In this document: positions 37,645 through 38,379 of the stretch, piece by piece
Layout of the letters: each line of letters starts with the position of its first letter
Numbering within the stretch: position 1 is the first letter of the stretch
Notes under the pieces: generated by a model
The model's input: only the letters and a program-made list of their open reading frames with translations
What the model was told of the DNA's origin: nothing
Database searches by the model: none
Program-made: the position numbers and the translations under genes
Assembly: GCF_030013595.1 (NCBI RefSeq)
Contig: NZ_CP122768.1
Reading direction: 5' to 3' (one strand)
Source: Escherichia coli
GTDB taxonomy: Bacteria; Pseudomonadota; Gammaproteobacteria; Enterobacterales; Enterobacteriaceae
DNA: 64,000 nucleotides

Positions 37645-37668
37645 GCGCTCCTGCGGGAGCGCTTTTTT
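37645..37668 (+). terminator. dsbB Rho-independent terminator (gcgctcc-tgc-gggagcgc followed by T6), immediately abutting the IS200 left end
   Basis: Hairpin plus T-run seen directly; the IS starts at the next base. Confidence 0.6.
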
Positions 37669-38379
37669 GTGCACAGAAAACCCCCAGCTAGGCTGGGGGT
37701 TCCGGAAAGCTTTCAGCTTTGAGCCAGTTATTAAAACCCCTTTTGATTTGTTAAAACACCTTGCGGTCTGGCAACTGCAAGTGTCAAACAAGAAATCAAA
37801 AGGGGGTCCCAATGGGGGACGAAAAGAGCTTAGCGCACACCCGCTGGAACTGTAAATATCACATAGTTTTTGCGCCGAAATACCGAAGACTGGCGTTTTA
37901 CGGAGAGAAGCGTAGGGCGATAGGCAGTATTTTGAGAAAGCTGTGTGAGTGGAAAAGCGTACGGATTCTGGAAGCAGAGTGCTGCGCAGATCATATCCAT
38001 ATGCTTGTGGAAATCCCACCCAAAATGAGCGTATCCGGCTTTATGGGATATCTGAAAGGGAAAAGCAGTCTGATGCTTTACGAGCAGTTTGGGGATTTGA
38101 AATTCAAATACAGAAACAGGGAGTTCTGGTGCCGAGGGTACTATGTCGATACGGTGGGTAAGAACACGGCGAAGATACAGGACTACATAAAGCACCAGCT
38201 TGAAGAGGATAAAATGGGGGAGCAGTTATCGATTCCATATCCGGGCAGCCCGTTTACGGGCCGTAAGTAACGAAGTTGAATGCAAATGTCAGATCGTATG
38301 CGCCTGTTAGGGCGCGGCTGGTAACAGAGCCTTACAGGCGCATTTGAAAAACCTCCGGCTATGCCGGAGGATATTTATT
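37669..38379 (+). mobile_element. IS200 (IS200/IS605 family), about 711 bp, copy 1; no terminal inverted repeats, left-end hairpin aaacccccagctaggctgggggtt
   Basis: Boundaries inferred by comparison with the identical second copy at 62331..63041; contains the Y1 (HuH) transposase gene and the characteristic left-end stem-loop. Confidence 0.85.
37812..38270 (+). CDS. tnpA: IS200 Y1 (HuH) transposase TnpA, 152 aa
   Basis: MGDEKSLAHTRWNCKYHIVFAPKYRRLAFYGEKRRAIGSILRKLCEWKSVRILEAECCADHIHMLVEIPPKMSVSGFMGYLKGKSSLMLYEQF... with HuH motif HIHML and catalytic Tyr region; matches recalled IS200 TnpA. Confidence 0.85.
   Translation: MGDEKSLAHTRWNCKYHIVFAPKYRRLAFYGEKRRAIGSILRKLCEWKSVRILEAECCADHIHMLVEIPPKMSVSGFMGYLKGKSSLMLYEQFGDLKFKYRNREFWCRGYYVDTVGKNTAKIQDYIKHQLEEDKMGEQLSIPYPGSPFTGRK

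What the first reader, a model, noticed from the sequence alone, without database searches (positions are those of the whole stretch)
37645..37676. Both IS200 copies are inserted immediately after a Rho-independent terminator T-run
Copy 1 abuts the dsbB terminator (gcgctcctgcgggagcgc-tttttt then gtgcacag...). Copy 2, read on its own strand, abuts the icd terminator (aacgggcgtataacacgcccgtt-gttttt then gtgcacag...) at 63030-63095. Identical placement relative to hairpin plus T-tract at two independent sites suggests target selection for terminator-like single-stranded hairpins, consistent with the single-strand transposition mechanism of the IS200/IS605 family. It also places the IS left-end hairpin where it can block read-through into the element.
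Basis: seen in the sequence. Interest (0 to 1): 0.45.

Follow-up and report, generated by a model that had tools for sequence, protein, structure and literature searches.

The report
IS200 lands just after transcription terminators
Both copies of the small mobile element IS200 in this E. coli window sit exactly at the end of a host gene's terminator hairpin, and a survey of 87 other insertion sites shows this is a general, largely already-reported targeting habit of IS200-type elements rather than coincidence.

Summary
Two 100% identical 711-bp IS200 copies lie at 37669-38379 (+) and 62331-63041 (-). Each starts directly after a GC-rich hairpin plus T-tract: the dsbB terminator and the terminator of a displaced icd 3' fragment.

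Empty sites in other E. coli genomes show that hairpin and T's belong to the host. Nothing is duplicated or lost. Both insertions are young: the dsbB one occurs in 1 of 5,426 complete genomes, and the icd/iraM one in none.

I surveyed 87 distinct IS200-group left junctions from Enterobacterales, Vibrio, Yersinia and many Firmicutes. All have TT before the element, and 91% have TTNTT. 91% follow a terminator-like hairpin, against 7% of control TTNTT sites. Insertion falls 5-10 nt (mode 6) after the stem, even inside longer T-runs.

The element's own right end has the same design: A-tract, GC hairpin, and a tail ending TTATT.

Best explanation: structure-assisted single-strand target choice, in which a terminator mimics the IS right end. 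The preference itself is well supported; the mechanism is inferred.

The association is not new. A 2025-26 preprint reports it at family level, and I recall (unverified) a 1998 IS1541 paper. The interest is moderate.

The parts
37106..37636 (+). dsbB coding sequence, the upstream gene co-directional with IS copy 1
   Evidence: Coordinates transferred from the RefSeq annotation of the aligned loci L001-L003; the stop codon was read.
37644..37668 (+). Host dsbB intrinsic-terminator-like hairpin (37644-37663) and T6 tract (37663-37668). This is the target of copy 1.
   Evidence: Present unchanged in empty sites. DNA fold -10.1 kcal/mol, z -4.6. Listed by the terminator scan.
37669..38379 (+). IS200 copy 1, 711 bp
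   Evidence: Boundaries come from the two-copy alignment and the empty-site comparison. PGAP annotates the homologous copy as an IS200/IS605 family transposase.
37679..37701 (+). Left-end subterminal hairpin AACCCCCAGC-tag-GCTGGGGGTT, preceded by AGAA, the inferred guide-like tetranucleotide
   Evidence: Fold -11.7 kcal/mol. The same architecture is conserved in 87 junctions. The literature describes it as a bidirectional terminator (PMC4513863).
37679..37802 (+). Region matching Rfam STnc490 (art200 / tnpA 5'UTR)
   Evidence: Rfam RF01405, 146 bits, E 3e-31.
37812..38270 (+). tnpA, 152 aa, a Y1 (HUH) transposase
   Evidence: ORF listing. NCBIfam NF033573 transpos_IS200, 144 bits. Pfam Y1_Tnp, E 9e-37.
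38347..38379 (+). Right end: A-tract GAAAAA, hairpin CCTCCGGC-tat-GCCGGAGG (38352-38370), and the 9-nt tail ATATTTATT. It is itself terminator-like on both strands.
   Evidence: Fold -10.0 kcal/mol, z -5.1. The terminator scan lists it on both strands. The architecture is conserved in 61 elements.
38393..38800 (-). 3' end of umuC, convergent with dsbB. Its stop codon lies 13 nt beyond the IS right end.
   Evidence: Annotation of L001-L003 transferred to the window.
63094..63261 (-). Displaced 3' fragment of icd (pseudogene) next to prophage DNA, upstream of and co-directional with IS copy 2
   Evidence: RefSeq annotates the homologous stretch as 'incomplete; missing N-terminus' in L004, L005 and L008.
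63042..63070 (-). Host icd terminator-like hairpin (63070-63048) and tail GTTTTT (63047-63042). This is the target of copy 2.
   Evidence: Present in empty sites. Fold -11.5 kcal/mol, z -4.9.
62331..63041 (-). IS200 copy 2, 711 bp, identical to copy 1. Left-end hairpin 63031-63009, tnpA 62898-62440, right-end hairpin 62358-62340.
   Evidence: The matching empty allele was found.
61959..62282 (+). iraM, convergent with icd' and with IS copy 2. Its stop codon lies 48 nt from the IS right end.
   Evidence: ORF listing. Annotated as iraM in the homologous loci.

Best explanation
These are two recent insertions of an ordinary IS200 element, a Y1-transposase member of the IS200 group in the IS200/IS605 family. 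Their position reflects an intrinsic target preference of the whole IS200 group.

The element integrates without duplication, immediately 3' of a T-rich pentanucleotide (consensus TTNTT, always ending in TT). That pentanucleotide lies 5-10 nt (mode 6) downstream of a stable, usually GC-rich hairpin on the same strand. In practice this is the 3' end of an intrinsic terminator.

Shown here:
- the precise junctions;
- the host origin of the hairpin and T-tract;
- the absence of duplication;
- the near-universal hairpin-plus-TT context across phyla;
- the fixed distance from the stem.

Inferred:
- The terminal TT is read by base pairing with the conserved AA of the guide-like sequence just 5' of the left-end hairpin, as in IS608.
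- The hairpin contributes to target capture because a terminator (A-tract, hairpin, T-rich tail) is a structural mimic of the element's own right end (GAAAAA, 8-bp hairpin, ATATTTATT). Terminator plus left end would then resemble the right-end/left-end junction of the excised circle.

Consequences (inferred):
- The host terminator stays intact and shields tnpA from read-through.
- Genes are not disrupted.
- The right end, which is terminator-like on both strands, can replace the terminator for a convergent gene such as umuC or iraM.
For: Junctions and identity of the two copies.

Empty sites:
- dsbB;
- icd/iraM;
- a third site after a paralogous icd-like terminator between ymgK and ymgL.

Youth of the insertions:
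- the dsbB insertion is in 1 of 5,426 genomes;
- no genome holds the icd/iraM insertion in one piece;
- the two copies are 100% identical.

Survey:
- 52 viral-contig loci gave 37 distinct flanks, all a hairpin plus a T-rich tail ending in TT. 36 of 37 pass a strict terminator rule, against 2-4% of controls (P about 1e-49).
- 80 loci with TnpA 66-94% identical, from Vibrio, Edwardsiella, Sutterella, Clostridia, Colibacter and others, show the same layout.
- Pooled, 87 distinct junctions have T at -1 and -2 in 87 of 87 and TTNTT in 79 of 87. 79 of 87 are terminator-like, against 223 of 3000 control TTNTT sites. MFE is -10 or lower in 94% against 13% (P about 2e-79).

Ruler effect: insertion falls 5-10 nt from the GC core and lies early in long T-runs in L074, L090, L131 and L040.

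Right-end architecture is conserved, with tail TTATT in 42 of 61 and TTTTT in 8 of 61. One tandem pair has an IS inserted directly after another copy's right end (L055).

Yersinia IS1541 sits after the sucD terminator and after a pFra hairpin. IS1541 also lies between pheL and pheA, the interval that holds the pheL attenuator (PMC3082878; that paper does not give the position relative to the attenuator hairpin).

IS608 guide/cleavage-site rule: PMC5934647.

Family-level enrichment of terminator-like sequences just upstream of IS200/IS605 elements: bioRxiv 10.1101/2025.07.22.666184.
Against: - No biochemical or genetic test of the hairpin's role was possible here.
- In the canonical IS608 model, the target is recognised only through 4 nt of base pairing, and the dimer's two hairpin-binding sites are already occupied by the transposon ends. 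A direct role for a third hairpin therefore has no structural precedent.
- Target tails (mode 6 nt) are shorter than the right-end tail (9 nt), so the mimicry is not exact.
- An A-tract 5' of the target hairpin is not enriched over ordinary terminators (86% vs 80%).
- A few junctions lack a convincing hairpin: L066, L125 and L114, L118.
- From memory, known selected insertions in coding DNA (hisD984, inv) show the preference is not absolute.
- Outside E. coli, element boundaries were set by analogy, not by empty sites.
- The surveyed loci are not a complete census of any one genome.
Confidence: 0.75

Rival explanations
1. T-tract only, plus selection. IS200 recognises just a T-rich tetra- or pentanucleotide by guide pairing, as IS608 recognises TTAC. 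Terminators are hit because they carry T-tracts, and insertions elsewhere are removed by purifying selection. The hairpin would be a bystander.
For: - The family rule is a 4-5-nt target (PMC5934647).
- TT at -1 and -2 is invariant and TTNTT is present in 91%.
- Insertions after terminators are expected to be nearly neutral.
Against: - Only 7.4% of TTNTT sites in the same loci, and 2-4% in this window, follow a hairpin, against 91-97% of insertion sites.
- AT-rich intergenic DNA offers many neutral TTNTT sites without hairpins.
- The two window insertions are very young (present in 1 and 0 of 5,426 genomes; copies 100% identical), so selection has had little time to act.
- Insertion keeps a fixed 5-10-nt distance from the stem even inside long T-runs.
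- One plasmid copy follows an AT-rich 13-bp hairpin with only TT as its tail (L145).
Confidence: 0.08
2. Termination-coupled targeting. The single-stranded target is the non-template strand exposed in RNA polymerase complexes paused or terminating at the U-tract. The hairpin would matter only through its RNA form, and insertion would mark the termination point.
For: - The insertion point, 5-10 nt after the stem, coincides with where intrinsic termination occurs (general knowledge).
- In the window, both copies are co-directional with the upstream gene.
- A crude ORF analysis finds a co-directional ORF ending within 150 nt upstream of the junction at about 65 of 84 sites.
- Copy 1 is on the leading-strand template, so a source of single strands other than the lagging-strand template is needed there.
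Against: - Three of seven annotated contexts have no co-directional upstream gene: ymgK faces away (L006); the E. albertii plasmid copy uses the antisense T-tract of a terminator (L144); L145.
- The tandem IS in L055 and the AT-rich hairpin in L145 are not obvious strong terminators.
- The ORF-orientation analysis was unreliable.
Confidence: 0.1
3. The hairpin and T-run are part of the mobile element, or are carried along from the previous site.
For: The two copies share five T's before GTGCACAG, so sequence alone could not settle this.
Against: - Empty sites contain the full hairpin and T-tract at dsbB, at icd and at the ymgK/ymgL site.
- Flank hairpins differ in sequence at every site, including three copies within one Colibacter genome.
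Confidence: 0.01
4. Coincidence: two insertions that happen to lie next to terminators.
For: There are only two sites in the window.
Against: Chance is about 2.5e-4 for the window alone, and about 1e-49 and 2e-79 in the surveys.
Confidence: 0.005

Closest known systems
IS200 / IS200C of Salmonella and E. coli (IS200 group, IS200/IS605 family)
   Same: - About 707-711 bp with a single Y1 transposase gene.
- Left-end hairpin reported to act as a terminator, and an art200/STnc490 antisense RNA region.
- No inverted repeats and no target duplication.
- PGAP names the homologous copies IS200C or IS200/IS605 family (PMC4513863).
   Different: Nothing essential; this is a member. The window variant is about 95-96% identical to the common E. 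coli IS200C.
IS1541 of Yersinia pestis and Y. pseudotuberculosis
   Same: - About 87% DNA identity with the same end architecture.
- Copies fetched here sit after the sucD terminator and after a pFra hairpin plus T6.
- A copy lies between pheL and pheA, the interval that holds the pheL attenuator (PMC3082878; its position relative to the attenuator hairpin is not stated there).
- From memory, not verifiable here: Odaert et al. 1998, J Bacteriol 180:178, reported rho-independent-terminator-like stem-loops at 8 of 14 IS1541 sites and proposed them as hot spots.
   Different: Different host, and a different first 8 nt (GTGCCCAG). As I recall, the 1998 report did not define the nucleotide-level rule.
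IS608 (H. pylori) and ISDra2 (D. radiodurans), the mechanistic paradigms of the family
   Same: - Insertion 3' of a short specific sequence that stays on the left flank.
- Subterminal hairpins bound by TnpA.
- Guide tetranucleotide 5' of each hairpin pairing with the cleavage site.
- No duplication (PMC5934647).
   Different: Their targets are plain TTAC or TTGAT with no reported need for an adjacent hairpin. They carry tnpB. They show a strong lagging-strand-template bias, whereas one of the two copies here is on the leading-strand template.
Bacterial group IIC introns
   Same: They insert just downstream of intrinsic-terminator (or attC) stem-loops, recognising DNA structure plus a few bases. 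The result is a harmless 'safe-haven' site (PMC7923331).
   Different: They are retroelements with a ribozyme and a reverse transcriptase. There is no Y1 transposase and no homology, so this is an analogy of strategy only.
REP elements and their RAYT (TnpA-REP) tyrosine transposases
   Same: A related Y1 HUH enzyme acts on extragenic hairpins with a short flanking motif. The TnpA here gives a weak sub-threshold match to the REP_Tyr_transpos model (30 bits, cut-off 80).
   Different: RAYTs are domesticated single-copy genes that act on their own REP repeats. They are not mobile ISs that insert next to unrelated host terminators.

Membership tests
IS200 group of the IS200/IS605 family | Encodes a Y1 (HUH) tyrosine transposase, TnpA | tested here: met
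   NCBIfam NF033573 transpos_IS200, 144 bits (cut-off 55). Pfam Y1_Tnp PF01797, E 9e-37.
IS200 group of the IS200/IS605 family | About 0.7 kb, tnpA only, no tnpB | tested here: met
   711 bp. The only gene-like ORF is tnpA, 152 aa.
IS200 group of the IS200/IS605 family | No terminal inverted repeats; subterminal hairpins at both ends on the same strand | tested here: met
   The ends GTGCACAG... and ...ATATTTATT are not inverted repeats. The left-end hairpin folds at -11.7 and the right-end hairpin at -10.0 kcal/mol as DNA.
IS200 group of the IS200/IS605 family | Insertion without target-site duplication | tested here: met
   Empty and occupied sites compared at dsbB and at icd/iraM.
IS200 group of the IS200/IS605 family | Insertion 3' of a specific tetra- or pentanucleotide that remains on the left flank | tested here: met
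   TT in 87 of 87 and TTNTT in 79 of 87 left junctions. The right end finishes with the same kind of motif, TTATT or TTTTT, in 50 of 61.
IS200 group of the IS200/IS605 family | Antisense RNA art200 (STnc490) region over the tnpA 5'UTR | tested here: met
   Rfam RF01405, 146 bits.
IS200 group of the IS200/IS605 family | Single-strand 'peel and paste' transposition with a preference for the lagging-strand template | tested here: inconclusive
   The mechanism is not testable in silico. By GC skew, copy 2 has its top strand on the lagging-strand template and copy 1 on the leading-strand template.
Intrinsic (Rho-independent) terminator (the two target sites) | GC-rich stem-loop directly followed by a T-tract on the coding strand | tested here: met
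   dsbB: 8-bp stem, 4-nt loop, T6. icd: 9-bp stem, 5-nt loop, GTTTTT.
Intrinsic (Rho-independent) terminator (the two target sites) | Located just downstream of the stop codon of a co-directional gene | tested here: met
   The hairpin starts 8 nt after the dsbB stop codon and 24 nt after the stop codon of the icd fragment.
Intrinsic (Rho-independent) terminator (the two target sites) | Actually terminates transcription | not testable with these tools
   This needs transcript 3'-end mapping.
Group IIC intron (considered only as a functional analogue) | Ribozyme RNA plus an intron-encoded reverse transcriptase | tested here: not met
   The element is 711 bp and its only gene is a Y1 transposase. 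Rfam finds only STnc490.

The most novel reading that the evidence does not exclude
IS200-group transposases choose targets by DNA structure as well as sequence. A hairpin would act as a ruler that places a TTNTT motif 5-10 nt downstream into the active site, because an intrinsic terminator mimics the element's own right end. This rule would hold from Enterobacteria to Clostridia. It would add a structure-reading step to the canonical model of IS200/IS605 target choice, which invokes guide-tetranucleotide pairing only. It would explain why IS200 is so harmless and 'dormant', and it would make insertion sites predictable. The probability given is that the rule is both real and not yet formally described.
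Probability: 0.35. Interest if true: 0.6.

Novelty: already known. Interest (0 to 1): 0.4.

Why it matters
- It explains how a transposon can reach tens of copies per genome while almost never causing mutations. It parks in a neutral slot behind a terminator, stays transcriptionally insulated, and brings a replacement bidirectional terminator at its right end.
- It gives annotators a simple rule for exact IS200 boundaries, namely ...hairpin-T-rich tail ending in TT | GT..., and for predicting hot spots such as the icd terminator. That terminator and its equivalents are occupied in several lineages.
- If the hairpin is truly read by the transposition complex, the textbook model of target choice for the IS200/IS605 family would need a structure-dependent extension. 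This bears on engineering these minimal single-strand transposases for targeted integration.
- For this window specifically, the finding is an ordinary, well-behaved pair of IS200 insertions.

Tried and rejected
1. The T's as part of the IS. Rejected by the empty sites.

2. An apparent 2-nt mismatch at the icd site. Common alleles read GTTGTTTTATTTATGTGG. This led me to consider imprecise cleavage or later deletion. It was resolved when the T6 allele GTTGTTTTTTATGTGG was found at 100% identity in other genomes.

3. A required A-tract 5' of the target hairpin, acting as a mimic of the right-end guide. Not supported: 86% of targets against 80% of control terminators.

4. Insertion always at the end of the T-run. 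Not so: in long T-runs the insertion lies early.

5. Orientation of the nearest upstream gene by ORF heuristics. Unreliable in GC-rich Firmicutes because of spurious antisense frames. I used only the seven annotated contexts.

6. The count of 166 genomes covering at least 80% of the copy-2 region is not the same insertion. The best such hit (strain 7CC) carries IS200C after the paralogous terminator between ymgK and ymgL.

7. Literature that could not be read, because the papers are not held:
- He et al. 2015
- Beuzon et al. 1999
- Barabas et al. 2008
- Odaert et al. 1998
- Siguier et al. 2014
- Cornelius et al. 2009
. Prior knowledge of the terminator association therefore rests on one preprint and my memory of Odaert et al.

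8. Full-text searches for an explicit statement of IS200 terminator targeting found nothing beyond that preprint.

Full report
**What is in the window**

The window is E. coli chromosome in the order nhaB-dsbB ... umuC ... iraM-icd', reversed relative to K-12.

It holds two copies of a 711-bp element, at 37669-38379 (+) and 62331-63041 (-). They are 100% identical.

Evidence that the element is an ordinary IS200:
- It encodes one 152-aa protein that matches NCBIfam transpos_IS200 (144 bits) and Pfam Y1_Tnp.
- It carries the Rfam STnc490/art200 region.
- It has a hairpin near each end and no inverted repeats.
- RefSeq annotates the homologous copies as IS200/IS605-family or IS200C transposase genes.

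**Checking the observation**

Copy 1 starts directly after the dsbB terminator: the hairpin is at 37644-37663 and the T6 run ends at 37668. The dsbB stop codon is at 37634-37636.

Copy 2, on its own strand, starts directly after the hairpin at 63070-63048 and the tail GTTTTT. This hairpin follows the stop codon of a 168-nt displaced icd 3' fragment that abuts prophage DNA.

As single-stranded DNA, both host hairpins fold much better than shuffled sequence (z -4.6 and -4.9). In the window with the IS copies removed, only 1.6% of all positions and 4% of T5-run ends pass the same terminator-like test. Two of two is therefore unlikely by chance, at about 2.5e-4.

**Empty sites**

- *dsbB.* K-12 and strain B20105 read GGGAGCGCTTTTTT|CCTGCC. 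The hairpin and all six T's are host sequence, and nothing is duplicated or lost. Only one of 5,426 complete genomes (Z0117EC0056) shares this insertion.
- *icd/iraM.* The common allele (GTTGTTTTATTTATGTGG) did not reconcile with the occupied site. The allele deduced by removing the IS (GTTGTTTTTTATGTGG) exists at 100% identity over 90 nt in at least eight genomes. This too is a clean insertion: GTTGTTTTT|IS|TATGTGG. No genome in the collection carries it in one piece.
- *A third site.* A third, independent site lies 0.9 kb away. A diverged paralogue of the icd terminator sits between ymgK and ymgL. It is occupied by IS200C in strains such as 7CC and GPEC1258 and is empty in K-12 (GTTGTTTTT|ATAAATATG).

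**Survey of other copies**

*Closely related copies.*
- An exact-match scan of viral and prophage contigs with the left-end hairpin gave 52 loci.
- Together with the window and the E. coli loci already fetched, these gave 37 distinct left flanks.
- With the IS start fixed at a constant offset, every flank is a hairpin followed by a T-rich tail ending in TT.
- 36 of 37 pass a strict rule. The 37th is a bulged hairpin with MFE -20.5.

*Distant relatives.*
- A protein-based scan of one genome per species returned 80 loci with TnpA 66-94% identical.
- They come from Vibrio, Edwardsiella, Erwinia, Sutterella, Veillonella, Colibacter and many Clostridia.
- The same layout recurs: a variable hairpin, a T-rich tail, then | GT, 5-9 variable nt, AA and the left-end hairpin.

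*Pooled result.*
- There are 87 distinct junctions. All 87 have T at -1 and -2.
- 79 have TTNTT: TTTTT 46, TTATT 18, TTGTT 8, TTCTT 7.
- 79 of 87 are terminator-like, against 223 of 3000 control TTNTT sites from the same loci.
- 94% have MFE of -10 kcal/mol or lower, against 13% of controls (P about 2e-79).

*Yersinia and plasmids.*
- Yersinia IS1541 copies fetched from plasmids follow the sucD terminator and a pFra hairpin.
- A published note places IS1541 between pheL and pheA, the interval that holds the pheL attenuator. That paper does not say where the IS lies relative to the attenuator hairpin (PMC3082878).
- The icd terminators of other enterobacteria are also occupied (L017, L058, L059). 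That recurrence is inflated by sampling prophage contigs at icd.

**Anatomy relevant to mechanism**

- *Distance from the stem.* The insertion point lies 5-10 nt (mode 6) 3' of the GC core of the stem. When the T-run is long, the element sits early in it rather than at its end (L074, L090, L131, L040). Position is therefore measured from the hairpin.
- *The right end.* It is conserved across the group as (G)AAAA, an 8-bp GC stem with a 3-nt loop, and a 9-nt tail AT(A/G)(T/G)TTATT. That is an intrinsic-terminator design ending in TTNTT, and the scan lists it as terminator-like on both strands.
- *A tandem pair.* One locus has an IS inserted directly after another copy's right end (L055).
- *Guide-like sequences.* The 4 nt 5' of the left-end stem are NNAA (AGAA here). 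Those 5' of the right-end stem are AAAA. In IS608 such guide tetranucleotides pair with the cleavage sites (CL TTAC with GL AAAG; PMC5934647). This accounts for the invariant TT but not for the hairpin.

**Best explanation**

IS200-group elements have an intrinsic, structure-assisted target preference for the 3' end of terminator-like hairpins. This preference is the well-supported part.

How it works is inferred:
- the TT (or TTNTT) is read by guide pairing;
- the hairpin assists capture because terminator plus left end imitates the right-end/left-end junction of the excised circle.

The hairpin might be bound by TnpA like the right-end hairpin, or it might stack against the left-end hairpin.

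**Rivals**

- *T-tract only, plus selection.* This fails on the controls, on the youth of the two window insertions, on the ruler effect, and on a copy behind an AT-rich hairpin with only TT as its tail (L145).
- *Termination-coupled targeting of the non-template strand.* This is attractive, because the site coincides with the termination point and copy 1 lies on the leading-strand template by GC skew. But three of seven annotated contexts have no co-directional upstream gene (L006, L144, L145).
- *Carried-along hairpins, and coincidence.* Both are refuted.

**Consequences (inferred)**

- The host terminator keeps its hairpin and at least five T's.
- tnpA sits behind two successive hairpins.
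- In both window sites the IS lies between convergent genes: dsbB and umuC, and icd' and iraM. Its right end, read on the opposite strand (hairpin plus TTTTT), can serve the convergent gene now separated from the shared terminator.

**Comparison with what is known**

The element is a plain IS200.

The terminator association is not new:
- A 2025-26 preprint reports terminator-like sequences over-represented immediately upstream of ISs, most strongly for IS200/IS605. It reads this as a regulatory niche.
- From memory only, Odaert et al. 1998 noted terminator-like stem-loops at 8 of 14 IS1541 sites and proposed hot spots. The paper is not held, so I could not check it.

I did not find four things stated in the accessible literature:
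- the nucleotide-level rule, TTNTT 5-10 nt after a hairpin;
- its near-universality across phyla;
- the resemblance of the target to the element's own right end;
- the contrast with the sequence-only target model of IS608 and ISDra2.

Eight full-text searches found no such statement. Several key reviews could not be read.

Group IIC introns are the closest functional analogue, since they also insert after terminator stem-loops (PMC7923331).

**Verdict**

The phenomenon is real and general. It is largely already reported as an association, while the mechanism remains open. Interest is moderate.

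Noticed in passing
L009:1080-1140 (K-12) and L006:1400-1462 (strain 7CC); the window equivalent lies beyond iraM, below about 61900: The iraM-ymgK segment is bracketed by two diverged direct copies of the icd 3'-flank and terminator: ...TTAAATATTGAAACGGGCGTATAACACGCCCGTTG... and ...TTAAGTATTGAAACGG(G/A)CGT(A/G)TGGCACG(C/G)CCGTTG.... Strain GPEC1258 lacks iraM-ymgK and has IS200C directly after icd. This suggests that the segment is an old insertion or deletion at the icd attachment region.
   Followed up: partly
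L055:6164-6897 (viral contig IMGVR_UViG_2814123192_000002): Two IS1541-type copies lie in direct tandem. The second starts immediately after the ...GGAGGATATTTATT right end of the first. This reproduces the right-end/left-end junction expected of the excised circle.
   Followed up: partly
window 38352-38370 (-) and 62340-62358 (+): Read on the opposite strand, the IS200 right-end hairpin is followed by TTTTT (from the GAAAAA tract). It therefore looks like a terminator for the convergent genes umuC and iraM, which the insertion separates from the shared host hairpin.
   Followed up: partly
window 47905-48069: A hexanucleotide repeat, TGGATT x 27.5 (86% matches), lies inside a 1179-aa ORF on the minus strand (46948-50487). 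It would encode a long dipeptide repeat, and it produces many spurious terminator-like hits in the scan.
   Followed up: no
window 56001-64000: GC content falls to 0.40-0.46, against about 0.50-0.52 elsewhere. The stretch beyond 63262 is AT-rich prophage-like DNA abutting the icd fragment, consistent with a phage integrated at icd.
   Followed up: no
L003:1414-1440 versus window 38371-38385; L006:2160-2175 versus L007:1518-1530: Orthologous occupied sites differ by one or two T's at the right junction (ATATTTATT|CC versus ATATTTATTT|CC; ...TTATTTT|ATAAAT versus ...TTATT|ATAAAT). This could be homopolymer slippage, assembly error, or variable cleavage register.
   Followed up: no
L144:365-1115 (E. 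albertii plasmid p2RM9973): IS200C lies between two minus-strand CDSs, both annotated as a phage antirepressor with a KilAC domain. It uses the T-tract on the strand antisense to them, so here the IS separates a gene from its bidirectional terminator.
   Followed up: partly
L145:400-445 (E. coli plasmid pCV839-15-p2): This copy reads GTGCACAGCCCCCCCCCAGC instead of GTGCACAGAAAACCCCCAGC, so the A-tract (the inferred guide region) is replaced by C's. Its annotated tnpA is shortened. It is possibly an inactivated copy or an assembly error.
   Followed up: no
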